From the IMG/VR virus record IMGVR_UViG_3300035181_000377, positions 2,828-66,827 of that record: a stretch of DNA of 64,000 nt. The stretch is one strand, 5' to 3'. This DNA is from a virus. The translations under genes were made by a program, and so were the position numbers. Below are positions 471 to 59,200 of the stretch, one piece after another; the first letter of the stretch is position 1, and every line of letters begins with the position of its first letter. The notes below the pieces were generated by a model, which did no database searches, was not told the DNA's origin, and was given only the letters and a program-made list of their open reading frames with translations.

Positions 471-501
471 ATAGAGAGGAGTTACCTCTCTATTTTTTTT
501 T
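471..501 (+). terminator. Intrinsic terminator
   Basis: ATAGAGAGG-agtta-CCTCTCTAT followed by T-tract. Confidence 0.85.
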
Positions 502-7350: not shown

Positions 7351-7382
7351 AATAGAGGAGCATTAGCTCCTCTATTTTTTTT
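7351..7382 (+). terminator. Intrinsic terminator
   Basis: AATAGAGGAGC-atta-GCTCCTCTATT followed by T-tract. Confidence 0.85.
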
Positions 7383-7434: not shown

Positions 7435-9048
7435 TTGGCCATTAAAGCAAAAAGATTTGATAATTTAGATCAAGAGACTAATATAGCAACAACAGATTTT
7501 GCTAGCGCAGTATCATCAAGTGTTATGAATTCACCTTTAAATGGCGGTGGACCAATCACACCTACAGACATGGATAGTCTGAGTAACTTTATAGCAAATA
7601 ATAATGTACCAGACTTAGCTGGGTTAAATAATTTATCCACGGTAGGTGATTTAACTGATGCTAGTAGTGTATCTAATGCAGTCCCAACTTTAACAGACTT
7701 AATTAGTAAGAGTCCTAGTATATCGTCCGTAATATCTAATAGTAATTTTAGTACAGGTGTTGCTGACTTAGAAAATAATTTATCTAGCATTGTTGGTCAG
7801 ATAACAGATGGTTCCGCTATAAGTAAAGTACAGACAACTTTAGCAAATAGTGTTAGTTCATTTGACTTAGGTGATATTACTAAAGTACCTGGTTTATCTA
7901 ATTTACCTCAAAGCACTATTAATAGTTATAGCCAATCTTCTAATACCTTAAACATTGCTGGTGCATTAAAGAATGTGCCTGGTATTGGTTCTTTAACAAG
8001 TAATATAGGTGGTGGTTTACCATCTATTACTAGCAGGTTAACTAAGGATAGTTCTTTATCTACTATACTACCTGCTGTACTGAATGCAGTTGATGTTAAT
8101 AAAATAACTAATATATTAATGCCTACTGGTGGTAATGTGGCAAATACTGTAAAACTATTAGCTGGTGCATTAAAGAATAGTGCGCTGACTAACATGATAC
8201 CCGCTAATAATACTGCTACAGTTTTAATTAATGGTGTATCTACACGTATTAACAACACATCTGGAAATGCTGGTTCATTAATAAGTTCTATAGGAAGTTT
8301 AACGGGTGGTAGTTATTCACCTAATATTAGTAACCCTTATTTATTAAGTCAAACTACTACTAACTTACAATCCCAAGCATCAAAGTTGGGGTTACCATCT
8401 ATATTTAGTTACGTATCAAGAATATTCCCTAATAGTTCAGCTATGGTTACGGCTGGTAAAAATATTTTATCTTCAGCTATCCATACTGGAGATTTTAATA
8501 CTATCTTGGATGTGGGTAAATCTGAATTAGGGGCTATCCTAAACAATTCTATGCCATCGGCTGTCTCAGGTATAGGAAGTAGTTTTAAATTGCCTGTAGG
8601 TCTTCCTAGCAGTAATTTGAGTGGGTCTTTCACTGACTTTACAACCCAGATGAGTTCTATGTCGCCAACATGGAACACTTATAATGGAATGTCTAGTATT
8701 AGTGCATTACCTAGTAATAATGAAGATTTAAATTCCATCTTTGCTTCTGCTTCATTAAGTACACCGGTAACTATACCTGATTTTAGTGTAGATCCTAAAT
8801 TTGATACTAGCATCAGTGATTCACAACTGATGTACGGTGCATTAGTAACTAAAGGTAGTATGCCAGCATCTAATGTTAGTGATACTTTGTTAGCTAGTTT
8901 ACCAAATGTACCACTACTACCAGATAACTCAATATCGAGTACTAGTTATGTACAGCCTGAGGTATACAGTACTAATTATGACATTGGTCTAGGTATTAAT
9001 ACTAATCCTAGTTATGATTTTAGTACATCACCAAGCATATATGCTTAA
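7435..9048 (+). CDS. Ser/Asn/Thr-rich putative virion structural protein
   Basis: 537 aa, TTG start after GGAG, convergent with the tail genes. Confidence 0.55.
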   Translation: MAIKAKRFDNLDQETNIATTDFASAVSSSVMNSPLNGGGPITPTDMDSLSNFIANNNVPDLAGLNNLSTVGDLTDASSVSNAVPTLTDLISKSPSISSVISNSNFSTGVADLENNLSSIVGQITDGSAISKVQTTLANSVSSFDLGDITKVPGLSNLPQSTINSYSQSSNTLNIAGALKNVPGIGSLTSNIGGGLPSITSRLTKDSSLSTILPAVLNAVDVNKITNILMPTGGNVANTVKLLAGALKNSALTNMIPANNTATVLINGVSTRINNTSGNAGSLISSIGSLTGGSYSPNISNPYLLSQTTTNLQSQASKLGLPSIFSYVSRIFPNSSAMVTAGKNILSSAIHTGDFNTILDVGKSELGAILNNSMPSAVSGIGSSFKLPVGLPSSNLSGSFTDFTTQMSSMSPTWNTYNGMSSISALPSNNEDLNSIFASASLSTPVTIPDFSVDPKFDTSISDSQLMYGALVTKGSMPASNVSDTLLASLPNVPLLPDNSISSTSYVQPEVYSTNYDIGLGINTNPSYDFSTSPSIYA

Positions 9049-9052
9049 ACAT

Positions 9053-9090
9053 AAATTATACACAGAGGTATCAGCCTCTGTGTATAATTT
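9053..9090. terminator. Bidirectional terminator
   Basis: AAATTATACACAGAGG-tatcag-CCTCTGTGTATAATTT. Confidence 0.8.
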
Positions 9091-9097
9091 ATCATTA

Positions 9098-11395
9098 CTA
9101 ATTTCCTTCTGTAGCATTAGAACCATGGAATGGCCCAGTCATCAATCTAAATAAGCCAGTATTACTTAACATACTACTCCACTTAGCTGACGATGTCATT
9201 TCATCTAATCTCTTCTTATACTTAGCCATTTTCAATCTAGCTTTAGGCCACCAATATATTTGTGAATATACGTCTTGCCCAGCTAACACAGCTAAGTAAT
9301 CATAAAGAATATTATCTTCGTCAATAGCAGCATTAAAGTTAAACATACCGCCTGATGAAATAGGCATGTGCATTATGGAAGATAAGTCAACAATGCTAAA
9401 CGATACATCAATAGCCATCGCATTACCTGTCCTAGTGAATCCTAAGTTACTAGTACCGCGAGTAATAGAAACAGACTCGATCATACCAGTTTGAATTTGA
9501 CATCTACCTCTATCAAATAACTGTACTATGAATGGACTAGTATAGGAAGATCTACCTGTAGACAATGGTAATGAACCTGCCATAATCATACATAACGGTA
9601 TATAGATATTTTGTAATTGTGATATAGCATTACCATATGGACTAATTAACTGAATATTATAATTAGCTCTAGGTAGTGTAGCGTTAGAACTTTGCCAGTG
9701 TTTAGGTATGTCAATAAAGCCTTCACCTAACAAACCTTTAATAGCATCTGATACACCCATTGTTAAACCAGATAATGCACCTGTTAATACATCGGCACCA
9801 AGATCAAGAGCTGCGCCAGCTACTGCACCAACTGCACCACCTACTAAGTTACCATTAGCAAAAGTAAATCTAGCTTCTCTAGCAGTAGAACTTAATCCAT
9901 TTAGGTTAGTAGATATATCGCTCTCTACTACAGAGTTACCAAAAGCTTCAGATACAGATCCTGTACTATCTACTCTAAAAGTGGCAAACATAGAACCATC
10001 GCTTAATTCAGCTTCTAAGAATATCTTTAAGTTAGAATAGAACTCACCTAATCCAGTTGCAGCATTTTTAGCAGCTGCTGCAGCAGCATCTGCTGGGTTA
10101 GCGACTATATCATCGTAACTAAGTCCATTAGCTACGTTAGATCTTTGAGTACCATCGGCATTAAAGAATATACCTTGAGCACCTTGTATAGTTGTAGCAG
10201 TATCAGTAGGAGTAGCTGTTTTAGCTGGTGTAGTTGGTGCTGCCGTTCCACCTTCAGCTGGTGGAGCTGATTCTATAGGTAATGGTGGTCTAGGCTCAGC
10301 AGCACTATTATCATTATAATACAAAGTACTCTTACCAAGTCTCTGAATTATATTTGCTAACGAGTGCTCACCTCTAGGGTCTGCTAATGAATCACTAGTT
10401 GTTTTAAAGTCTACACCTAATTGACTTTTTTTAGACACTTCATCAAAGTTATCATAGTCCTGCGTAAATAAGACGTTAGCCATACGTTGCGCTCTATTAG
10501 CTATGGCATAAACATCTATCGCTCTATCAGCAGTAAATAAATCTGGCATCATTTCTGATAATGTGTCTAAACTATCTTGATCTAGATTTAATTTAGTATT
10601 TATTTTTTGATCAGCTGGTATGCTAGGATCAGAATTAGGATTTGAAAATATCCTAGGTAATATACCCATATTCACTGCTAAGTTATTTACTAATGAGTTT
10701 ACTGTGGACCAATATAAAGGCATCGTTGGTTTAAGTTTATAAAATTTAGAATTAGCGCCAGTTACAAACTGTGATAAAAACTGTCCACCGATTAGCATCA
10801 TACTGGCAATAGGAAATGCACTAAAAGATACCGCTGCACCTATTCCTTCTGCTATTTTATAAATTAAACCATTACCACTACCTGTTCTAGCTAATGAACT
10901 TACACCAGAATCAAATGCACCCATTAAGAAGTTACTTAAAGAGTTATATTCAGGTACACCAAATCTTAAGAAAATAGTTTGTGCATTATCGTCTATAGAT
11001 TCACTATAGTATCTACCCATACCGTAATCGCCATTACCTTGATCTAAAGTTACATCTGAACGATTAGATATTCTACCTTTTACACGAATATCGCTATATG
11101 GGCAAAACTGTGGTCTAGCATTAATGCCTATACTACCACCCATACGTGTATCTGTAAACTTATCATTAGCACTTGACCATGTTCTATTTAAAATCAAGTT
11201 AGGGTCTGCTAATGTAATATCGCTAATCATGAACGCCTGCTGTAACCATTTATTATCTAAAGTTACGTCGATATTTTCTACTACCAAAGAGCTATTAGTT
11301 TTTACTAATGGTGGTTGATCATTAGCTATTGCACTTTGTGCATTACCACTAATAACTTGTGTACCGTGAAATGTATCTAATGCTATACCAGCCAT
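9098..11395 (-). CDS. Virion tail/baseplate protein (phiKZ gp182-like)
   Basis: KFTDTRMGG, GMGRYYSE, LRFGVPEYNSL, IDIPKHW, SITRGTSN motifs; lies next to the gp181-like gene. Confidence 0.7.
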   Translation of the reverse strand: MAGIALDTFHGTQVISGNAQSAIANDQPPLVKTNSSLVVENIDVTLDNKWLQQAFMISDITLADPNLILNRTWSSANDKFTDTRMGGSIGINARPQFCPYSDIRVKGRISNRSDVTLDQGNGDYGMGRYYSESIDDNAQTIFLRFGVPEYNSLSNFLMGAFDSGVSSLARTGSGNGLIYKIAEGIGAAVSFSAFPIASMMLIGGQFLSQFVTGANSKFYKLKPTMPLYWSTVNSLVNNLAVNMGILPRIFSNPNSDPSIPADQKINTKLNLDQDSLDTLSEMMPDLFTADRAIDVYAIANRAQRMANVLFTQDYDNFDEVSKKSQLGVDFKTTSDSLADPRGEHSLANIIQRLGKSTLYYNDNSAAEPRPPLPIESAPPAEGGTAAPTTPAKTATPTDTATTIQGAQGIFFNADGTQRSNVANGLSYDDIVANPADAAAAAAKNAATGLGEFYSNLKIFLEAELSDGSMFATFRVDSTGSVSEAFGNSVVESDISTNLNGLSSTAREARFTFANGNLVGGAVGAVAGAALDLGADVLTGALSGLTMGVSDAIKGLLGEGFIDIPKHWQSSNATLPRANYNIQLISPYGNAISQLQNIYIPLCMIMAGSLPLSTGRSSYTSPFIVQLFDRGRCQIQTGMIESVSITRGTSNLGFTRTGNAMAIDVSFSIVDLSSIMHMPISSGGMFNFNAAIDEDNILYDYLAVLAGQDVYSQIYWWPKARLKMAKYKKRLDEMTSSAKWSSMLSNTGLFRLMTGPFHGSNATEGN

Positions 11396-18760: not shown

Positions 18761-20374
18761 ATGAATGAAAATATTATACCTTTTAATATTGACCTTTTAA
18801 TACTAACGCCAGAAAATACTAAGTTACTAAGACCAGTTACTGTATTAGATATTTTCGATGGCGCTACTAAAAACTTTCACAATGACGGTCTATTTAGTAC
18901 AGCTATATTTGGCCGATATGGTGAAGAAGTTAGGAATAGAACTTTTTCTTATATAGATTTAAAAATAGATATCTTTCATCCAGTTATATTTAAAGCACTC
19001 TGTGATTTAAAAGAACTTTACCATGAAATAATGGCTGGTAAAGGTTATGCTATCTGGGACGATAAGCTTAAAGATTTTGAACGGTCTACACCATTGGATG
19101 GTGAGACTGGATTTAGTTTCTTTATAAAACACTTTAAAGAAATGCAGTTTGAAAAACGACCAAGTACTAAACGCGAATACAATATTAAATTAATTGAAAA
19201 ATTTAAAGATAAATGTTTTATAAGTAAAATAGTTGTATTACCTGCTGGTCTTAGAGATTTTGAAATTGATGATACTGGTAAACCTTCTAAAGATGAAGTA
19301 AATACATTCTATATTAAAGCACTCGCATACAGTAACTTAATCACGCCGGCCTCAATTAAAATTAATCCAGAGTCTATAGATACCACTCGATATAATTTAC
19401 AAGCTAATGTAATGGATTTATTTAATTATATTAAGAATTTATTAGAAGGTAAAAAGAAATTAATTTTAGATAAGTGGGCTGGTCGTAAAATTTTTAATGG
19501 TACGCGAAATGTTATAACTAGCTTAAATAATGATACGACATCTTTAGGTTCAAAAAGAACTGTTAGTTATAATCAAACAGTGATAGGGTTATATCAATAT
19601 TTAAAAGCTAGTTTACCTATAAGTATGTATAAAATAAAAACTGGTTTTATATCTAATGTTTTTATTGGACCCACAGCACCAGCTATGTTGGTTAATAAGA
19701 AAACATTAAAGAAAGAACAAGTAGAAATAAATTCAGATTATTTTGATGACTGGATGTCTGATGAAGGTTTAGAAAAAACAATAACTAGCTTTTCTGAAGA
19801 AACTGATAGACACGCTTATATAACGATAGGTAATCATTACTTAGGATTGATTTATAAAGGTCCTGATATGACTTATAAATTATTTCAAGACATAGATGAT
19901 TTACCATCAACCTTATCTAGAGAATATGTTACACCAATTACTTATGCTGAGTTATTTTACTTATCAGTATTTGATGGATCTGAAAAAAATCCTTTATTGG
20001 TTACACGTTATCCTATCACAGGTTTTGGTAGTATTTATCCTAGTTTCGCATGTATGAAGTCTACAGTAGAATCTGAAACTAGAACTATGTTAGATGATAA
20101 TTGGGTAGAGACAGGGATAGTCGCTATTTCTTTTCCAATTAAAGATGTGCAGTTTGTAAATTCAATCTCACCTCACGCTAGTCATCTTAAAAAATTGGGT
20201 GCTGACTTCGACGGAGATACCGTATCTGCAAATATCTTATTTACAGAAGAGTCAAAAGCTGAAGTTACAAAGTTATTAAAAAGCAAAATTTATTATGTAA
20301 ATGCTTCTAACGAAATGAATTTTAGTGCTAGTTCAGATACAATTAACTATGTATTAAAAAATATAACTGGGTAA
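18761..20374 (+). CDS. Virion RNA polymerase beta' subunit with catalytic motif (phiKZ gp180-like)
   Basis: DGLFSTAIFG, VLPAGLRD, TRYP, GADFDGD; ATG 18761 follows GGAG. Confidence 0.92.
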   Translation: MNENIIPFNIDLLILTPENTKLLRPVTVLDIFDGATKNFHNDGLFSTAIFGRYGEEVRNRTFSYIDLKIDIFHPVIFKALCDLKELYHEIMAGKGYAIWDDKLKDFERSTPLDGETGFSFFIKHFKEMQFEKRPSTKREYNIKLIEKFKDKCFISKIVVLPAGLRDFEIDDTGKPSKDEVNTFYIKALAYSNLITPASIKINPESIDTTRYNLQANVMDLFNYIKNLLEGKKKLILDKWAGRKIFNGTRNVITSLNNDTTSLGSKRTVSYNQTVIGLYQYLKASLPISMYKIKTGFISNVFIGPTAPAMLVNKKTLKKEQVEINSDYFDDWMSDEGLEKTITSFSEETDRHAYITIGNHYLGLIYKGPDMTYKLFQDIDDLPSTLSREYVTPITYAELFYLSVFDGSEKNPLLVTRYPITGFGSIYPSFACMKSTVESETRTMLDDNWVETGIVAISFPIKDVQFVNSISPHASHLKKLGADFDGDTVSANILFTEESKAEVTKLLKSKIYYVNASNEMNFSASSDTINYVLKNITG

Positions 20375-28119: not shown

Positions 28120-28154
28120 ATAGAGGATGGAATTACCCATCCTCTATTTTTTTT
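28120..28154 (+). terminator. Intrinsic terminator
   Basis: ATAGAGGATGG-aattac-CCATCCTCTAT followed by T-tract. Confidence 0.85.
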
Positions 28155-28826: not shown

Positions 28827-29168
28827 ATGTTTTCATTCAACTTCAATGCATTCTCGTTTGTTGGTCAGTTATTGGTAATCAAACACATGAAGGCGCGTTC
28901 TGTATCCGATGCGGAGTCCATGGAGTTCGTTGTAAATTCGCCTGAACTAATGTTATTCTTTTTGTCTTCTAAAGAAGATGTAATGAAGAAGAACAAGATA
29001 TTGGAACTTTACAAAGCATCTTCACACCATAATAAAGAGCTTGTCTCTGTTTTAGAGGACGCGGCATTCTTTTCATCCAATAGAAATGAAACAATTCATT
29101 TCTATGACATTATGGTTGAAGAAGCGAATAAATTTATTGTTACAGCAGATATAGAAAATCTGCTGTAA
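28827..29168 (+). CDS. Hypothetical protein, paralog family A (copy 2)
   Basis: 113 aa, aligns end to end with 28295..28636. Confidence 0.8.
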   Translation: MFSFNFNAFSFVGQLLVIKHMKARSVSDAESMEFVVNSPELMLFFLSSKEDVMKKNKILELYKASSHHNKELVSVLEDAAFFSSNRNETIHFYDIMVEEANKFIVTADIENLL

Positions 29169-29180
29169 TGGTGAATAAAA

Positions 29181-29212
29181 AAAATAGGAGCATTCGCTCC
29201 TATTTTTTTTTT
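29181..29212 (+). terminator. Intrinsic terminator
   Basis: AAAATAGGAGC-attc-GCTCCTATTTT. Confidence 0.85.
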
Positions 29213-29285
29213 ATTTTAATTTGATATAATTATTTTAATAGGCCGTTGTATTTTATAGTAAAACTATTTTATAAAGGAAACTTGT

Positions 29286-29897
29286 ATGACATTATCTATG
29301 TTAGTTGCTGGCCTAATGAAAGCTAATGAATTAGTTGAAGTAGAAGCTAAAGATTATTCAATAATAAATGCCACATATGGAGCTTACTCTGACGCGCGTG
29401 ATGATGTATTTATAGAATACATTAATGCTAAAAAAGAATTTACTGGTATATCTGTAAATAGAAATGGAGAATTTAAGGACACTGCTACTTCTGAACCTCT
29501 TAAGCTTTATAGTTATAAAGATGGAACTTTAAAAATTTGGCGTGATCAAAAAGATCAATATAAGGCAGCTAGATTAGTGTGTGAACTATTTGTTAAAGTA
29601 CCAGAAGACTTAATGAATAATTCTCCAATACTATCTTATATAGATGGAAATAAAAGTAATATTAAAGCTTCTAACCTAGCATGGCGAAATAAAAATAACG
29701 CACAGAACAGACATACTACTACTTTATTAGTAACTGATCCAGATGGTAATGAAGAAACTTATTTTAGTATTGTTTCCTGTGCTAAAGCGATCGGGATACT
29801 TAAACAATATTTATATAATAGATTTAAAAAAGATGATTCAGATATTGGTAAGATTATTACATTAGAAAATGGGACTACCATTAAAAAAATAAAATAA
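29286..29897 (+). CDS. Degenerate HNH/NUMOD-type endonuclease-like protein
   Basis: ARLVCELFV...YIDGNKSNIKASNLAW with the catalytic His positions substituted; C-terminal YFSIVSCAKAIGI. Confidence 0.65.
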   Translation: MTLSMLVAGLMKANELVEVEAKDYSIINATYGAYSDARDDVFIEYINAKKEFTGISVNRNGEFKDTATSEPLKLYSYKDGTLKIWRDQKDQYKAARLVCELFVKVPEDLMNNSPILSYIDGNKSNIKASNLAWRNKNNAQNRHTTTLLVTDPDGNEETYFSIVSCAKAIGILKQYLYNRFKKDDSDIGKIITLENGTTIKKIK

Positions 29898-31116: not shown

Positions 31117-31267
31117 TCTAAACTATAAATACTCATTAGGTGTTAGCCTAATGAGTATTTAAACTAGGTTCTAATATATTTTAATAATATATAACTTTAA
31201 TGAAGCTAGTACGTTAATGTATTAATTCATTTACTTTTTATTTACTTTTTGTGATAAAGGAAATACC

Positions 31268-45297: not shown

Positions 45298-45304
45298 AAA
45301 TTAT

Positions 45305-45337
45305 AAATAGAGTAGCATTAGCTACTCTATTTTTTTT
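45305..45337 (+). terminator. Intrinsic terminator
   Basis: AAATAGAGTAGC-atta-GCTACTCTATTT. Confidence 0.85.
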
Positions 45338-45427
45338 GATTCCATTTTTTTTTCAGTCATATATAACATAATTGAACGTTGTACATAATGTACAACAATT
45401 TCTTTATTTTTTAAAAGGAGATTTATC
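45336..45427 (+). promoter_or_regulatory. Repeated early promoter + hairpin + RBS module
   Basis: CATATATAACATAATTG; hairpin GTTGTACA-taa-TGTACAAC; AAGGAG. Confidence 0.8.
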
Positions 45428-45721
45428 ATGTCACATTCAGACAACCTTTCTGTTTTATCATCCACGTTCGGCGCGGAGTTTTATAAACTTTATAAAAGCT
45501 TGCCAGACAACAGCCTTATTGCTATATGGTTGCAGTTTGGAAGCCCAGAACCAGAGTTAGTTTATTGTCTTCCAGAGGAGTCATGCATGACTCCTCTGGA
45601 GGTACGAAGTCTTGACGGAGTCCGTAAAGGTATCCGTATATACAGTTATGATGTACTACGGGCGATAAAAAGCGCACTGCCATTTACTTGTGGGGCGTTT
45701 ATAAACGCATTTCACAAATGA
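45428..45721 (+). CDS. Hypothetical protein, early cassette
   Basis: 97 aa between promoter module and terminator (45725-45762). Confidence 0.75.
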   Translation: MSHSDNLSVLSSTFGAEFYKLYKSLPDNSLIAIWLQFGSPEPELVYCLPEESCMTPLEVRSLDGVRKGIRIYSYDVLRAIKSALPFTCGAFINAFHK

Positions 45722-45760
45722 TTAAAATAGAGAGGGGCTGATGCCCCTCTCTATTTTTTT

Positions 45761-54152: not shown

Positions 54153-54812
54153 ATGATAAAAAAACATGACAATGATAAAGTACTAAGTCTAGAAACAACA
54201 AGTTCATTAATACTTGGTCTAAGTGATAGTATGTACTTAGTAGAAGGCCTGATAAATTTAACAGGTGCAATTAGAAATGAATTTAAAGGCATTTATTTAT
54301 TTAACTCCTCTACACCTTTAATAAAAGAGAACACCAAGTATTATGCAAATTTTGCATTATTGGAAGACCCCATTAATCAAATACCTGATTTACGCTGTGC
54401 TATTACTGATGATGAAAATAACGTTGTCATTCCTGAGTTCGTTATGTTAAATCAGAGTAAGTTTTTAAGAGGTTATCCAAAACATAACCTACATGCTTTG
54501 ATGTTAATTATTAAATTAATAGAAGATGAGCTAGTGCGTGTATGTCCATTTGCTATTAATGATGAGAGTAGAGTAGATCCTACTATCATAGATTATTATT
54601 TTAATCCACGTGTACAAGAGATAATTGCTTCGGGTAAATTAGAAGATATTTGTCATCCGATTATTTCAATCATGAGTGAATTTATAGGTAACGATAACTA
54701 TCACATTTATTTTGTTAAAGTAAATGAAGATGAAGCAACGTTAACTATTAATAAAACAATTGATCACAGAATATATGAATGGACTAAACAACAGTATGAC
54801 ATCAAAATATGA
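54153..54812 (+). CDS. Conserved phiKZ-like hypothetical protein
   Basis: AAGGAG RBS; C-terminal IDHRIYEW. Confidence 0.7.
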   Translation: MIKKHDNDKVLSLETTSSLILGLSDSMYLVEGLINLTGAIRNEFKGIYLFNSSTPLIKENTKYYANFALLEDPINQIPDLRCAITDDENNVVIPEFVMLNQSKFLRGYPKHNLHALMLIIKLIEDELVRVCPFAINDESRVDPTIIDYYFNPRVQEIIASGKLEDICHPIISIMSEFIGNDNYHIYFVKVNEDEATLTINKTIDHRIYEWTKQQYDIKI

Positions 54813-55940: not shown

Positions 55941-56336
55941 ATGAGTGATTTTAATTTAGGCTTTAGATATAACTTTAATACTTTAGCACCAGCTATATTA
56001 GGTGCTACGTTTACTAATGCAAAGGTACTGGCGCTATTAAACTATGATACTGCAACTATGTTTGGTAATATTGCTGCCACGGCAGTAGCTGTATATCCTT
56101 TGTTGCCTGCTGGTACGCCTAGTGATCCTACGGCATATAAGTATGTAATCATAGAAACAGAAAATAAGAGTAAAGTAGTATTAGCATTAAACTGGATAGA
56201 TACAAATAGTATTGTTTCAGTAGAATCAGTCAATGCTAACTTTAAGATTAGTAATATTACTTTGGATGATATAAATAAAATTACAACTGCTTTAGTAGCT
56301 ATGGGTTATACTCAGATAACTACTTCAACGATGTAA
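55941..56336 (+). CDS. Conserved phiKZ-like hypothetical protein (SH3-like beta-barrel type)
   Basis: YNFNTLAPAILG, VYPLLPAGTP, LALNWID motifs. Confidence 0.7.
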   Translation: MSDFNLGFRYNFNTLAPAILGATFTNAKVLALLNYDTATMFGNIAATAVAVYPLLPAGTPSDPTAYKYVIIETENKSKVVLALNWIDTNSIVSVESVNANFKISNITLDDINKITTALVAMGYTQITTSTM

Positions 56337-56361
56337 ATAAAAATTATTATACCTATTATAT

Positions 56362-56745
56362 GTAGAAAATACAGTTTAAGTTCTGTAAGATGTTAGTGCG
56401 TTTTGCTCCAAAACATTTTAAGCTCTCCTCATGAGGGCTGACACAGCAATCCACTTATCTTACAGAACACCCTCACTACTGATAAACAATACTATATTGA
56501 TACCTTACATGCACTAGCTCGCAACTTAAAATATTAGGTTATAGTAAATGCGTTTATCAGTTCTTTAATTACAGCAATAGCCATCTTTAAGCGCCCCCTC
56601 GATGTAAAGATGATTTTTCATGGTTTAACTCCTTTTCTCCGTGATATGTTGCAATTGTAATTAAAGTTGTTGCGAGCAGCATGTTATAATTAAAAACATT
56701 AGTTTTTAGTATCCACTGAGGTTTTCCTCAGTGGATACTTTTTTT
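56362..56745 (+). ncRNA. Candidate large structured non-coding RNA
   Basis: No ORF of 60 aa or more; four perfect 9-12 bp helices plus smaller hairpins; ends in a strong terminator. Confidence 0.65.
56708..56745 (+). terminator. Intrinsic terminator
   Basis: AGTATCCACTGAGG-tttt-CCTCAGTGGATACT followed by T-tract. Confidence 0.88.
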
Positions 56746-56822
56746 GTTTCTATTTATAATTAAACATATATAACTAATATGAAGTTAATGTAATTAATCT
56801 TTTTAAAAGGAGTTTTAAAAAA

Positions 56823-57161
56823 ATGGTAATAGTTAAAGCAGAATGTGAACTTACGATGGAATATTGGTTAGTATTAAATCCAATGCAAGGTAATACAGAG
56901 GATGGTGTAAAGTTTGGACCTTATACTTCTAAAGAAGAAGCTAGAACAGTATATAACTCACAATTATGCGAACCATATAAAGATGAAGGTATGGATACTT
57001 TTAATGGCGGTACTAAACAATACCATAAGAGTTTTATTAAAGGTGGTCCAATGGAATGGATGAACCGAATAGATGAGAATGACTGGACCACGCCTAACCG
57101 TTATGGTCACGGACTGCATAAAATAATTGCTGATGTGAAGGTATTGCGAGTTATTGGATAA
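56823..57161 (+). CDS. Hypothetical protein
   Basis: CATATATAACTAATATG promoter near 56765; AAGGAG RBS. Confidence 0.75.
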   Translation: MVIVKAECELTMEYWLVLNPMQGNTEDGVKFGPYTSKEEARTVYNSQLCEPYKDEGMDTFNGGTKQYHKSFIKGGPMEWMNRIDENDWTTPNRYGHGLHKIIADVKVLRVIG

Positions 57162-57216
57162 CTAAGTGGATGGACATTAATAGAGAGTAGTGTATTTTTA
57201 TTTTTAAGGATTAATT

Positions 57217-57588
57217 ATGAATATCCAATTAAAGAGTCGCACTAGAAAATCCGGTATAATACCGGTTACGTGTTTAGACTCCATTATGGCGGAGATGTTA
57301 AATGTATCACCTGATGCATTTCAGTTGTATAATGGTGAGTTTACTACTTTTGATAGGTTTAGTAATCAACTACAAGTGTTTACATTCTTTAGTGGCGCTG
57401 GTTTATTTACGAGTAATAAGAAGAATGAGTTTTATATAGTTTTTCAAGGTTTACCAGAAGTAGCTGGTATGTCGGCTGCTGAAGAATTAGAAATGTTAGA
57501 TCATTTACGACTAGCTAAAAATCATTTCTTAAAAATAAGAAGTATGATTGATTTAGGACAAATGAGTTTACGAATAACTAGATTTTAG
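57217..57588 (+). CDS. Hypothetical protein
   Basis: AAGGA RBS. Confidence 0.7.
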   Translation: MNIQLKSRTRKSGIIPVTCLDSIMAEMLNVSPDAFQLYNGEFTTFDRFSNQLQVFTFFSGAGLFTSNKKNEFYIVFQGLPEVAGMSAAEELEMLDHLRLAKNHFLKIRSMIDLGQMSLRITRF

Positions 57589-57602
57589 ATAGGAGCAGTA
57601 TT

Positions 57603-57857
57603 ATGAATTTATTTGAATTTTTATTAACTTTGTATTTAGTATCTGTGGTGCTAACTATTTTATTTATAGTTAAGCATTCAGTATCCGTACACGATGTAAT
57701 TAAAAGCTGGCTTAATGTAAGTACTTTAAATAAGAAAATTAAGGCTAGTAAATTAACATATATAGGTCTTATACTTTATATGATTTTATTTCCAATTTTA
57801 AATACTTATTTAGCTGTAATGTATTTGAAAATTAAAAAAGAAGAGTTATTATTTTAA
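57603..57857 (+). CDS. Small two-TM membrane protein
   Basis: Two hydrophobic segments; AGGAG RBS. Confidence 0.7.
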   Translation: MNLFEFLLTLYLVSVVLTILFIVKHSVSVHDVIKSWLNVSTLNKKIKASKLTYIGLILYMILFPILNTYLAVMYLKIKKEELLF

Positions 57858-57883
57858 TGTAGTATTTTAAAGGAGTAGTAAAA

Positions 57884-59200
57884 ATGGCTATAGTTGATAA
57901 TGTAACAGGGGCACCTTTTAACGATAAATTAGATATAAAATTAAATGAAGTTACTAGAAATGTAATCATTTCAATAAATGATGCTATTGAAATGATTACT
58001 AACATCTATAGTAAAATTAATGCTTTTAATTCTACTAGAGAAGTTCTTATTAGCGATTTATCAATAATAAAAGGTTTAGTAAAAACTTTACTTAAGGATG
58101 CTTTAAATAATAAAGAAGATATAGATTTTATAGAATCTTTTTTACGACCACGCGCTGATGAATTAAGTGCAATTAGTGATAGACTAAGAGATAATTTAGA
58201 TTCTGTTTTAAATCGCGATGGACGTAGTAAAAAAGTAGTAAGTATTATTACTAGTGAAATAAATGATGTAGTTACGGATGTTAATATTCTATTAACCAAA
58301 ATTAAAGAAAGTTATCAACCTAAAGAAATTAATGAAGAACAACCTAAAGGAGAAACAAAAATGAAAGAAAATATTAATTTATCAGCGATGCTTAATGAAA
58401 TTGCGAATGTTATGTCTTTTAATGTTTATGAAGTTAATATTAAAGAACTTGTATATGACACTAGTTCAAAAATGGCGTTTAGATGTTTAGAAGGTAAAGA
58501 GTCGCGTTCTAAAAAGATACTGAAAGCAAATAATAAATTACTAAAAAAATTATTAGATATTTCAAAACATGGGAGTTTTATCCATGTTAGTGTTAAATTT
58601 CTAGATGATCTACTAGGTAAGTATAAAGTATTCTTTAGAATTATTGTTGAATTAATTAAGGATGATGGTAGTTTATCAGAAGTTGATTTTCAATCTTTGT
58701 TAGAAGGTAATATTTCTGATAAGTTAAAACAAAATCAAACTTATGGATTCTATCAACCAGACTTTAATCCAGGTAAGCAGATTGGTGGGTTTACGCAAGC
58801 AACTTATCAGCGACAGCCTCAACCATTTGTTGCACCAGAATCCATCCCACCATTCGCTAGACATAATCAATTTACTGGACAACATTTCGCACCACAACAA
58901 ATAGATCATAGAACTTTAGATAAAATAAAAGTTGAAATGAATGTGTTTATGAGTACTATTCAACACGGAGCTGATTTAAAGTTGGCTGTTTCTACACATA
59001 TTCAGAATATGGCTAATATAGCAGACTTACCAAAATACGAATTGATGCATAAAGATCTTTTAAGTCGTATAAGGAATGAAGCTCGACAATTTAATAACGT
59101 TGTCACTAAAGGCGGTGATTTAGAATTAGCATTATCTATGCATATACAAAATATGTATAATATAGCTGCATATGTGCCACCTCCAGCTTCTCGTTTTTAA
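57884..59200 (+). CDS. Hypothetical protein with internal start and duplicated C-terminal motif
   Basis: AAGGAG RBS; second in-frame RBS+ATG at 58361; DL.LA.S.HIQNM.NIA occurs twice. Confidence 0.7.
   Translation: MAIVDNVTGAPFNDKLDIKLNEVTRNVIISINDAIEMITNIYSKINAFNSTREVLISDLSIIKGLVKTLLKDALNNKEDIDFIESFLRPRADELSAISDRLRDNLDSVLNRDGRSKKVVSIITSEINDVVTDVNILLTKIKESYQPKEINEEQPKGETKMKENINLSAMLNEIANVMSFNVYEVNIKELVYDTSSKMAFRCLEGKESRSKKILKANNKLLKKLLDISKHGSFIHVSVKFLDDLLGKYKVFFRIIVELIKDDGSLSEVDFQSLLEGNISDKLKQNQTYGFYQPDFNPGKQIGGFTQATYQRQPQPFVAPESIPPFARHNQFTGQHFAPQQIDHRTLDKIKVEMNVFMSTIQHGADLKLAVSTHIQNMANIADLPKYELMHKDLLSRIRNEARQFNNVVTKGGDLELALSMHIQNMYNIAAYVPPPASRF

What the first reader, a model, noticed from the sequence alone, without database searches (positions are those of the whole stretch)
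56362..56745. Large pseudoknotted non-coding RNA candidate with anti-Shine-Dalgarno-like loops
Seen: a ~400-bp gap with no long ORF in an otherwise dense genome, where nearly every segment has a partner. Helix 56380-91 pairs with 56457-68 (12 bp perfect) and encloses the hairpins GTTTTG/CAAAAC and AGCTCTC/GAGGGCT. Helix 56478-87 pairs with 56552-61 (10 bp) and continues as TACTATA/TATAGTA. Helix 56563-73 pairs with 56656-66 (11 bp) and encloses CATCTTTA/TAAAGATG and TCATGG/CCGTGA. GCTCGCAAC (56517-25) and ACATGC (56507-12), inside the second domain, pair with 56669-77 and 56679-84 outside it, which makes a long-range pseudoknot or a switch. G-U pairs and the terminator T-tract favour the + strand. 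Loops are C-rich (CTCC, CTCCTC, CCCCCTC, AACTCCTTTTCTCC), and AACTCCTTTT is the exact complement of this phage's RBS AAAAGGAGTT (e.g. before 54153 and 56823). Inference: an undescribed jumbo-phage RNA acting as a translational regulator, scaffold or packaging/nucleus-associated RNA. The 5' end is a guess from a TATG motif at 56359.
Basis: partly seen in the sequence, partly recalled or inferred. Interest (0 to 1): 0.85.

Follow-up and report, generated by a model that had tools for sequence, protein, structure and literature searches.

The report
Folded jumbo-phage RNA with anti-ribosome-site loops
The largest gene-free gap in this giant-phage fragment most likely encodes a folded non-coding RNA of about 385 bases whose exposed loops mirror ribosome-binding sites; related uncultured phages, and in miniature the cultured E. 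coli phage Goslar, carry similar RNAs at the same place, but no transcript or target has been seen.

Summary
All five long helices are perfect Watson-Crick. The 486-nt gap is the largest of 12 in the window. The + strand folds far better than shuffles, z -8.9 against -4.6 for the - strand, and it ends in a + strand terminator. No Rfam family or tmRNA matches.

Fold statistics alone are not exceptional. The core gives z -4.3, and 2 of 26 random native windows are more extreme.

The stronger support is comparative. The upstream gene is a phiKZ gp49-like SH3DP gene. In 58 of 67 related uncultured phage loci, 400 nt or more separate it from the gp50-like DNA polymerase gene. Two subfamilies of these gaps show covarying helices. 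In 37 gaps, 50 of 170 hairpin loops carry CUCC/UCCU-type motifs, against 4 of 191 in coding controls.

The window's RNA shares the synteny, terminator and loops, but no sequence or covariance-model homology. Its polymerase gene is inverted 2.5 kb away.

Most likely it is a fast-evolving riboregulator that pairs with Shine-Dalgarno sites. Lineage-specific matching to its own ribosome-binding sites (RBSs) was not found. This scan has noted the same class before on other DNA.

The parts
55941..56336 (+). Upstream neighbour: SH3DP gene (131 aa), homologue of phiKZ gp49
   Evidence: Pfam PF20287, E 2.7e-29. tblastn finds homologues in 142 phage records, including PHIKZ049.
56345..56365 (+). Possible promoter and 5' boundary; the 11-mer ATTATATGTAG (56355-65) is shared with relative L020 at the same offset after the stop codon
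   Evidence: window 19-29 matches L020 23-33. It is only a degenerate match to the window's recurrent ATAT(A/T)ACT..ATG motif. Inferred, not shown.
56380..56468 (+). Domain 1: 12-bp closing helix P1 and hairpin 56421-56439 (stem AGCTCTC/GAGGGCT, loop CTCAT)
   Evidence: Perfect pairing. Mean pair probability is 0.996 for P1 and 0.986 for the hairpin.
56469..56477 (+). C-rich single-stranded linker ACCCTCACT
   Evidence: Strain variants add CC and change T to C here.
56478..56561 (+). Domain 2: 10-bp helix P2, competing with or pseudoknotted to the long-range helix
   Evidence: Perfect pairing. Mean pair probability 0.36.
56507..56525 (+). 5' strand of the long-range helix (ACATGC..GCTCGCAAC), which pairs with 56669-56684
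   Evidence: Duplex energy -21.4 kcal/mol, mean pair probability 0.61.
56563..56666 (+). Domain 3: three-way junction. Hairpin 56582-56612 has a C-rich loop (GCGCCCCCTCG). Hairpin 56618-56644 has the 15-nt loop TTTAACTCCTTTTCT.
   Evidence: Pair probabilities: 0.80 (P3), 0.95 and 0.92.
56669..56684 (+). 3' strand of the long-range helix
56708..56745 (+). Intrinsic terminator: 14-bp stem with 7 G-C pairs, 4-nt loop and a T-run
   Evidence: The - strand has no T-run after it.
56768..56784 (+). Promoter-type motif ATATAACTAATATGAAG for the next gene, downstream of the terminator
   Evidence: Matches the motif found in front of genes at 31189, 42109, 44760, 49651, 50410, 52566 and 62307.
56805..56814 (+). 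RBS AAAAGGAGTT of the next gene, the exact 10-nt complement of loop 56627-56636
56823..57161 (+). 112-aa ORF of no known family; largely missing in some strains
   Evidence: No Pfam or PHROG hit. Contigs of runs X3 and X4 skip 56868-57190.
59251..61374 (-). gp50-like DNA polymerase gene (707 aa), inverted relative to its position in relatives
   Evidence: It aligns at 34-52% identity with the genes that follow SH3DP in relatives. PHIKZ050 is annotated as DNA polymerase.

Best explanation
The interval from about 56360 to 56745 (+ strand) is a real, structured non-coding RNA element of about 385 nt. It has three helical domains plus a long-range helix and ends at an intrinsic terminator. It may be made from a weak promoter just after the SH3DP gene, or as the 3' tail of that operon.

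It is a lineage-specific, fast-evolving representative of a class of RNAs that uncultured phiKZ-like (nucleus-forming type) jumbo phages keep between the gp49-like SH3DP gene and the gp50-like DNA polymerase gene. Phage Goslar has a miniature form. The hallmark of the class is hairpins with covarying stems that display conserved C/U-rich loops (CUCC, UCCUU). These loops resemble the 3' tail of 16S rRNA.

The most likely mechanism is inferred, not shown. The loops and the C-rich linker pair with Shine-Dalgarno regions of messages and so damp their translation. The first candidate target is the gene just downstream, whose RBS is a perfect 10-nt match. Because in this phage the polymerase gene has moved away and been inverted while the RNA stayed, action in trans is favoured over a purely cis-acting polymerase leader.
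For: The structure is real and strand-specific.
- 5 of 5 helices are perfect.
- z is -8.9 on the + strand against -4.6 on the - strand; the core gives z -4.3.
- 8 of 101 MFE pairs are G-U.
- The terminator is on the + strand only.

It is not coding.
- The longest ORF in the gap is 32 aa.
- Strains X2-X4 carry a 1-nt insertion at 56593, inside both - strand small ORFs.

Strain variation avoids the helices.
- In the core 56370-56690, 0 of 7 listed variant events fall in the 164 of 321 nt that form the main helices.
- The 812 nt of coding sequence upstream carry 22 listed substitutions in the most divergent strain.

C-rich motifs are enriched.
- The target holds 4 CTCC against a mean of 0.29 per 330 nt; 0.57% of windows reach that.

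The class is real.
- 58 of 67 polymerase loci with an SH3DP gene have at least 400 nt between the two genes.
- Alignment A3 (5 sequences) has 93.6% of cells paired and 29 pairs changed on both sides, against 14.2 +/- 2.5 in shuffles (0 of 500 reach it) and 2-8 in slid controls.
- Alignment A4 (3 sequences) has 21 of 118 pairs with compensatory changes, with conserved UUCCUUCUU-type loops on covarying stems.
- 50 of 170 + strand hairpin loops in 37 gaps carry the C motif and 1 of 170 the G motif. On the - strand the figures are 3 of 206 and 30 of 206.
- Polymerase-coding controls give 4 of 191. At least one such loop is found in 27 of 37 gaps against 4 of 35 controls.
- Goslar's 298-nt gap has the same kind of hairpin loop, and shares a 26-nt post-terminator block with L078.
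Against: - No RNA run holds the stretch, so expression, ends and abundance are unknown.
- No homologue of this particular RNA was found. blastn clusters exclude it. A covariance model of domain 3 found 1 match in 71 loci at E 2.2, which is not credible. Its membership of the class therefore rests on synteny and shared features, and none of its own helices has covariation.
- Fold statistics are not unique in this genome: 2 of 26 random windows have a lower z, and the core is about -1.2 sd after GC regression.
- A loose hairpin search finds 34 (+) and 46 (-) pyrimidine-loop hairpins in the window, so one such hairpin is not diagnostic.
- The RNAs are no more complementary to their own downstream translation start region than to those of other loci: mean longest match 7.25 against about 7.0, with 3 of 32 at or below the 10% tail. 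The same holds for all RBSs in their own locus: difference -0.29, Wilcoxon p 0.30, 32 loci.
- The motif TTTATGCC, present in 19 of 37 gaps, is absent here.
- The promoter match is weak.
Confidence: 0.55

Rival explanations
1. It is a cis-acting leader or operator rather than an RNA gene. The structured region and its terminator attenuate or insulate read-through from the SH3DP operon. In read-through transcripts the anti-SD loop sequesters the RBS of the next gene: the DNA polymerase in relatives, the 112-aa ORF here.
For: - In relatives the element lies directly in front of the polymerase gene.
- In the window the loop matches the next RBS perfectly over 10 nt, at a distance of 170 nt.
- In A3 the invariant loop CUCCUUGU and the invariant block UUGUAACGACCUG are complementary to the polymerase leader UAGGUCGACAAGGAG.
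- Short RNAs ending by premature termination in 5'UTRs are reported for 201phi2-1 and other Pseudomonas phages (passages read in PMC11512511, and PMC10914365).
Against: - Complementarity to the locus's own downstream start region is not better than to those of other loci.
- The A3 pairing has no covariation, because both sides are invariant.
- Here, and in L022, no polymerase gene follows.
- Here a good promoter-type motif lies between the terminator and the next gene.
- Some strains lack most of the 112-aa gene while keeping the RNA.
Confidence: 0.2
2. It is a protein sponge or scaffold. The repeated pyrimidine-rich loops are binding sites for a protein, and base pairing with RBSs is incidental. 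Candidates are ribosomal protein S1, Hfq, a phage RNA-binding protein, the adjacent SH3-fold protein or the polymerase.
For: - Several similar loops per molecule, with conserved loops on covarying stems, is the architecture of known protein-titrating RNAs. That comparison is recalled knowledge, not a call.
- The element is constantly linked to the SH3DP gene even when the polymerase has moved.
- The loops show no lineage-specific tuning to RBSs.
Against: No protein partner was tested or predicted here. The loop cores are specifically CUCC/UCCU rather than merely U-rich.
Confidence: 0.12
3. It is a spacer without a function of its own. It would be a variable intergenic region left by rearrangement, holding a terminator and chance inverted repeats.
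For: - The region lies at a rearrangement point: the polymerase is inverted and four ORFs are inserted, and there are strain-level deletions just downstream.
- Comparable z-scores occur elsewhere in the window.
- Short terminator-bearing gaps of phiKZ and pVa-21 also give z of -7.1 and -6.6.
Against: - The core carries fewer listed changes than the coding flank, and none is in a helix.
- The enrichment of C motifs is strand-specific.
- Relatives show covariation at the same locus.
Confidence: 0.08
4. It is a minus-strand product or a DNA-level element. Options are an 18-aa peptide behind the perfect - strand RBS (AAAAGGAGTT, 7 nt, ATG at 56621), a - strand RNA with GGA-type loops, or a replication origin next to the polymerase gene.
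For: - The anti-SD loop read on the - strand is a perfect RBS at ideal spacing from an ATG.
- - strand loops carry GGAG-type motifs in 30 of 206 cases.
- The helices are inverted repeats in DNA too.
Against: - All three strain variants have a 1-nt insertion at 56593, inside the small ORF.
- The RBS-ATG arrangement is not seen in L020, L021 or L022 (read by eye).
- The terminator, the G-U pairs and the better fold are on the + strand.
- In A3 several pairs are G-U in all 5 sequences, for example columns 192-214. Those would be C-A on the other strand.
- GC skew simply follows gene orientation.
Confidence: 0.05

Closest known systems
Unpublished class noted by this scan: structured RNA with anti-Shine-Dalgarno loops in front of the DNA polymerase gene of nucleus-forming jumbo phages (earlier AI notes); re-derived here from loci L020-L106
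   Same: It follows the gp49-like SH3DP gene. It is several hundred nt long with no ORF, has multiple hairpins with C/U-rich loops, ends in a + strand intrinsic terminator, and has no Rfam match.
   Different: The window's RNA is not alignable to any member. It lacks the TTTATGCC block found in 19 of 37 gaps. It is no longer next to the polymerase gene, which is inverted 2.5 kb downstream.
Staphylococcus aureus RNAIII (Rfam RF00503) and the C-rich-region sRNAs RsaE/RoxS of Firmicutes
   Same: It works like them in principle: a multi-hairpin RNA that shows C-rich apical loops complementary to Shine-Dalgarno sequences. The properties of RNAIII and RsaE/RoxS are recalled knowledge; no paper on them was read here.
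   Different: There is no sequence or structure homology: no such family appears even at E up to 10. The RNA is phage-encoded, has a different size and architecture, and its targets and any chaperone dependence are unknown.
5'UTR-derived short RNAs of giant and other virulent Pseudomonas phages (201phi2-1 sRNA005, phiKZ sRNA upstream of gp182, PAK_P3 RNA upstream of the primase/helicase gene)
   Same: These are phage non-coding units made of a promoter, a short structured RNA and a terminator in front of a conserved gene. They are conserved by position among related phages (passages read in PMC11512511, and PMC10914365).
   Different: Those RNAs were selected as shorter than 250 nt and lie in front of other genes. 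No anti-SD loops are described in the passages read. None is reported between gp49 and gp50. The supplementary tables were closed, so a listed RNA at that position cannot be excluded.
Translational operators of phage replication genes (T4 gp43 autoregulation, RegA)
   Same: Translation control acting at the RBS of a DNA polymerase gene. This is recalled knowledge, not a call.
   Different: Those are short protein-bound operators within the mRNA, not a terminator-bounded RNA of several hundred nt. No protein binding was tested here.

Membership tests
Any Rfam 15 family (including tmRNA, RNase P, 6S, group I intron, GOLLD, ROOL, HEARO, RNAIII) | Covariance-model score at or above the family's gathering threshold | tested here: not met
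   Whole window: only 3 tRNAs. Region at E up to 10: 10 weak hits, the best at E 0.11 on the terminator hairpin. ARAGORN finds no tmRNA. 17 related loci give 0 hits.
Polymerase-upstream anti-SD-loop RNA of phiKZ-like jumbo phages (class defined here and in earlier notes of this scan) | Lies directly after the gp49-like SH3DP gene, on the same strand | tested here: met
   The SH3DP gene ends at 56336 and the RNA starts within about 25-45 nt. The same is seen in L003, L020, L021 and L022 and in 58 of 67 polymerase loci.
Polymerase-upstream anti-SD-loop RNA of phiKZ-like jumbo phages | Lies directly in front of the gp50-like DNA polymerase gene | tested here: not met
   The polymerase gene is at 59251-61374 on the - strand, with four ORFs between it and the RNA.
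Polymerase-upstream anti-SD-loop RNA of phiKZ-like jumbo phages | Hairpin loops of 6 nt or more with CUCC/UCCU/CCUC/CCCC on the + strand, and a + strand intrinsic terminator | tested here: met
   2 of 4 large MFE loops of the window's gap carry the motif. There are 4 CTCC in 330 nt. The terminator is at 56708-56745.
Polymerase-upstream anti-SD-loop RNA of phiKZ-like jumbo phages | Detectable homology to other members (sequence, covariance model or the TTTATGCC block) | tested here: not met
   No blastn link at E 1e-3. Model R1 found no credible hit in 71 loci. TTTATGCC is absent. The subfamilies themselves share little beyond the terminator-proximal block.
Polymerase-upstream anti-SD-loop RNA of phiKZ-like jumbo phages | Covarying helices | tested here: inconclusive
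   Shown for relatives (A3; A4). For the window's own RNA there are only strain variants, 0 of 7 of which fall in helices; there are no compensatory changes.
C-rich-loop, SD-targeting riboregulators (RNAIII, RsaE/RoxS type) | Demonstrated base pairing of the loops with the RBS of target mRNAs, and repression of translation | not testable with these tools
   Only complementarity is seen: 10 of 10 nt to the RBSs at 56805 and 54139. There is no excess for the phage's own RBSs over those of other phages.
Riboswitch or transcription-attenuation leader | Mutually exclusive terminator and antiterminator pairing, and a conserved ligand- or protein-binding core | not tested
   Only an eye check was made for segments complementary to the terminator arms, and none was convincing. 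The competing pair P2 and the long-range helix does not involve the terminator.

The most novel reading that the evidence does not exclude
Many nucleus-forming-type jumbo phages, this one included, make an abundant RNA that mimics the 3' tail of 16S rRNA several times over. In trans it competes with ribosomes for Shine-Dalgarno sequences. That would make it a global RNA-based switch of translation, serving host shut-off or the early-to-late transition, rather than a regulator of one gene. Its retention here after the polymerase gene moved away would then reflect an autonomous RNA gene.
Probability: 0.15. Interest if true: 0.85.

Novelty: new variant of a known kind. Interest (0 to 1): 0.68.

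Why it matters
Non-coding RNAs of virulent jumbo phages are almost unexplored. The papers read here report only short candidates of unknown function. The reviews and searches found no RNA at this locus.

This element belongs to a recurrent feature of dozens of uncultured phiKZ-like phages. It is strand-specific and supported by covariation. It sits beside the replication genes and carries a simple, testable hallmark: loops that mirror ribosome-binding sites.

Because the cultured E. coli phage Goslar has a miniature version, the idea can be tested at the bench. The window adds a natural experiment: the RNA stayed with the SH3DP gene when the polymerase gene was inverted and moved. This argues against a purely cis-acting polymerase leader.

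Tried and rejected
Known RNA families. Rfam at gathering and at E up to 10, and ARAGORN, gave nothing.

Close relatives in the phage collection. blastn and megablast found no match.

Protein-anchored searches with single proteins in IMG/VR found nothing.

DNA pattern scans.
- The 9+9-nt long-range helix pattern gave 12 loci, all chance hits.
- A 19-mer gave one unrelated high-GC contig.

Shared k-mers among five gaps: none of note. The 12-nt match TTACAGCAATAG with L021 lies in the opposite helix strand and is not significant after 15 comparisons.

Covariance model of the window's domain 3: no credible hit in 71 loci.

Locus-specific complementarity to the phage's own RBSs: not found.

A loose hairpin regex is not specific.

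GC skew gives no hint of an origin.

RNA evidence. No RNA holder was listed for the stretch, so expression could not be examined. The four runs that were laid are DNA contigs, and 17 listed differences were not shown in that output.

Literature. Searches and passages of PMC11512511, PMC10914365, PMC8244752 and PMC12908238 mention no RNA between gp49 and gp50. (a motif word) was useless. Supplementary tables of these papers were closed and may list such a transcript. The 'TATG' late-promoter motif of phiKZ is recalled and was not confirmed in any text I read.

Rows dropped. For some searches, 30 of the 67 gap sequences written to file were left out, either as near-duplicates or because they hold an ORF of about 100 aa or more; 37 were used. 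Searches used 32 loci.
Full report
**What is there**

The window is 64 kb of a 66.8-kb IMG/VR virus record estimated at 25% complete. It has 32% G+C and a coding density of about 0.92.

The interval 56337-56822 is the largest of 12 gaps of at least 120 nt; the next is 249 nt. It holds no ORF longer than 32 aa.

The loop AACTCCTTTT (56627-36) is the exact complement of AAAAGGAGTT. That sequence occurs twice on the + strand, as the RBS of the genes starting at 54153 and 56823.

A 14-bp hairpin with a T-run at 56708-56745 is a terminator on the + strand only. A good copy of the window's recurrent promoter-type motif, ATAT(A/T)ACT..ATG, follows it at 56768. In front of the structure there is only a degenerate copy. 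However, the 11-mer ATTATATGTAG (56355-65) recurs at the same offset after the stop codon in relative L020.

**Is the structure more than chance?**

The + strand of 56337-56750 folds at -112.4 kcal/mol with z -8.89. The - strand gives z -4.61.

These numbers need discounting.
- Without the flanks and terminator the 316-nt core has z -4.3.
- Among 26 random native windows (mean z -0.97, sd 1.8), two are more extreme.
- After regression on G+C across the window, the core is only about 1.2 sd more stable than average.
- Several other regions hold 4-5 perfect inverted repeats per 330 nt.
- Short terminator-bearing gaps of phiKZ and pVa-21 also reach z of about -7.

In the ensemble, P1, P3 and three hairpins are robust (pair probabilities 0.80-0.996). 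The GTTTTG/CAAAAC hairpin is not (0.08). P2 (0.36) competes with the long-range helix (0.61, duplex -21.4 kcal/mol), so a pseudoknot and a two-state switch are both possible.

8 of 101 MFE pairs are G-U, which fits an RNA of the + strand.

CTCC is rare on the + strand: 57 copies in 64 kb. It occurs 4 times in the 330-nt target, a count reached by 0.57% of windows. CTCCT occurs 2 times there out of 23 in the window.

**Known families**

Rfam finds only three tRNAs in the window and nothing credible in the region at E up to 10. ARAGORN finds no tmRNA.

**Strain-level variation**

No RNA run holds the stretch. Contigs of three DNA runs from other studies cover it.

In the most divergent strain the 812 nt of coding sequence upstream carry 22 listed substitutions. 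The core 56370-56690 carries 4 substitutions and 3 indels. None of these 7 events lies in the 164 of 321 nt that form the main helices. They fall in the C-rich linker (+CC, T>C), the C-rich loop (G>A, +C), a junction and the 3' spacer.

If the events are independent this has a probability of about 0.007. If neighbouring events are merged it is about 0.06. 17 differences were not shown in that output.

The +C at 56593 falls inside an 18-aa - strand ORF that has a perfect RBS, and also inside the 31-aa - strand ORF. This argues against a peptide.

Some strains lack 56868-57190, that is most of the 112-aa gene, but keep the RNA.

**Context**

The upstream gene is an SH3DP protein (PF20287, E 2.7e-29). 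It has homologues in 142 phage records, all phiKZ-like jumbo phages and all below 60% identity.

In phiKZ the homologue is PHIKZ049, followed after 201 nt by PHIKZ050, annotated as DNA polymerase. The window's homologue of that polymerase (707 aa) lies inverted at 59251-61374. Four ORFs without family matches lie in between.

**Relatives**

Searches anchored on SH3DP gave 8 loci. In L003, L020, L021 and L022 the gene is followed by 340-770 nt without a credible ORF, strongly folded (z -5.7 to -8.6) and ending in a terminator-like hairpin with a T-run (sequences).

A search anchored on the polymerase gave 80 IMG/VR loci.
- 67 have SH3DP upstream.
- In 58 of those 67 the two genes are at least 400 nt apart.
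- Many of these gaps have no ORF above 60-80 aa.

Cultured phages have short gaps:

| Phage | Gap (nt) |
|---|---|
| RSL2 | 110 |
| Moabite | 116 |
| RAY | 124 |
| PCH45 | 130 |
| phiKZ | 201 |
| pVa-21 | 247 |
| Goslar | 298 |

**The relatives' gaps are structured RNAs**

Alignment A3 holds five sequences at 69-98% identity.
- RNAalifold predicts 124 pairs, 29 of them with compensatory changes.
- On the 105 local pairs, 93.6% of cells pair.
- 29 pairs change on both sides, against 14.2 +/- 2.5 in shuffles (0 of 500 reach it) and 2-8 when partners are slid.
- The hairpin GGGG-UUUCCUCCUUGUUU-CCCC has an invariant loop.

The structure was derived from the same five sequences, so the slid control is somewhat favourable to it.

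Alignment A4 holds three sequences. It has 21 of 118 pairs with compensatory changes, and three hairpins whose stems covary under conserved pyrimidine loops such as AUUCCUUCUUC.

17 related loci have no Rfam hit.

**A shared hallmark**

In 37 non-redundant gaps, 50 of 170 + strand MFE hairpin loops of at least 6 nt contain CUCC, UCCU, CCUC or CCCC, and 1 of 170 contains the purine mirror. On the - strand the figures are 3 of 206 and 30 of 206.

Equal-length polymerase-coding controls from the same loci give 4 of 191. At least one such loop is found in 27 of 37 gaps against 4 of 35 controls.

The window's loop UUUAACUCCUUUUCU sits beside UACUCCUUUU (L021), AUUUUCAUUCCUUUUG (L022), UCUUUCUUCCUUUCUAC (L020), UUUUUCUCCUUUUU (L033) and others.

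A strict rule finds + strand terminators in 18 of 37 gaps and - strand ones in 2 of 37. The block TTTATGCC follows the terminator in 19 of 37 gaps.

Goslar has a miniature version:
- a closed domain with the loop UUUUUAUUCCUUCUUUGG;
- a terminator;
- the same post-terminator block, with 26 nt at 96% identity to L078.

**Is the window's RNA a member?**

Met: position after SH3DP, strand, size, absence of ORFs, C/U-rich loops, terminator.

Not met: it is not in front of the polymerase, it lacks TTTATGCC, and it has no detectable homology. blastn puts it in no cluster. A covariance model of its domain 3 finds one match at E 2.2 in 71 loci.

The subfamilies themselves share little beyond the terminator-proximal block, so the class evolves fast. 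I therefore file the window's RNA as a syntenic, probably very divergent representative, not as a proven homologue.

**Mechanism**

Shown:
- a structured, + strand, non-coding element whose helices are spared by strain variation;
- enrichment of anti-SD-like motifs;
- a covarying class at the same locus.

Inferred: the loops pair with Shine-Dalgarno regions.

For cis control of the next gene:
- the perfect 10-nt match in the window;
- in A3, complementarity of two invariant blocks to the polymerase leader.

Against cis control:
- these RNAs match their own downstream start region no better than those of other loci (own mean 7.25 nt, others about 7.0; 3 of 32 loci in the 10% tail);
- they match their own locus's RBSs no better than those of others (difference -0.29, p 0.30, 32 loci).

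So the loops are generic anti-SD sequences, not tuned ones. My crude test does not reproduce that, but it used few genes per locus and rough start calls.

That the RNA stayed with SH3DP when the polymerase moved (this window; L022) favours action in trans or a link with the SH3DP operon. A protein-binding role of the loops cannot be excluded.

**What is known**

The closest functional analogy is the C-rich-loop riboregulators of Firmicutes (RNAIII, RsaE/RoxS). This is recalled knowledge; there is no homology.

Short 5'UTR-derived RNAs conserved by position are reported in 201phi2-1, phiKZ and other Pseudomonas phages. They are under 250 nt, lie at other genes and have no described function (passages read). 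A phiKZ dRNA-seq study predicted one 75-nt sRNA that a northern blot did not confirm (passage read).

Three literature searches and a review found no RNA at the gp49-gp50 locus. Supplementary tables were closed.

This scan's own earlier notes describe the same class upstream of the polymerase gene in at least five other genomes. These are unchecked AI notes. I reached the class independently before reading them.

**Verdict**

The element is most likely a new, fast-evolving phage riboregulator with anti-SD loops. This copy has been displaced from the polymerase gene.

Confidence is about 0.85 that it is a functional structured RNA element and about 0.4-0.45 that it acts by SD pairing, giving 0.55 for the combined statement. 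Interest is 0.68.

Noticed in passing
window 56868-57190: Contigs of two other runs (X3, X4) join 56868 to 57190 with 4 other letters in between. Some strains therefore lack most of the 112-aa ORF just downstream of the RNA. A second variant joint runs from 56885 to 57197.
   Followed up: partly
window 59251-61374 (-) and 56823-59200 (+): The gp50-like DNA polymerase gene is inverted relative to its usual place right after the SH3DP gene. Four ORFs (112, 123, 84 and 438 aa) without Pfam hits lie in between; of these, only the 84-aa ORF has a PHROG hit, a weak one (phrog_5087, E 0.0055). This looks like a local rearrangement or insertion.
   Followed up: partly
window 31189, 42109, 44760, 49651, 50410, 52566, 53724, 56768, 62307 (+): A recurrent promoter-type motif, ATAT(A/T)ACT(3-4 nt)(A/T)TG(A/G), lies in intergenic regions in front of + strand genes. 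Four copies read ATATAACTTTAATGA exactly.
   Followed up: partly
window 8968-9283 and 45412-45727: Random 316-nt control windows fold unusually well: z -6.8 and -5.5. The second overlaps the gap 45298-45427. The first was not examined.
   Followed up: no
window 7361-7376, 28133-28150, 29191-29207, 45738-45753, 483-491 (+): Hairpins with long stems (9-14 bp) have loops containing CUCCU or CCUCU followed by UAUUUU.
   Followed up: no
window 19471-19800 and 28891-29400: These regions hold the highest density of perfect inverted repeats of at least 9 bp in the window, 4-5 per 330 nt. That equals or exceeds the target region.
   Followed up: no
L046 cols 463-474 and 566-580 of alignment A3: In the A3 subfamily the invariant block UUGUAACGACCUG, just before the terminator, is complementary to the invariant UAGGUCGACAA directly upstream of the polymerase SD AAGGAG. 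Because both sides are invariant there is no covariation.
   Followed up: partly
L107 (Escherichia phage Goslar) 1891-2190: The cultured phage Goslar has a 298-nt gap between its SH3DP-like gene and its polymerase-like gene. The gap holds a closed domain, a pyrimidine-loop hairpin, an annotated terminator and the conserved TTTTTTATGCCGTC block.
   Followed up: partly
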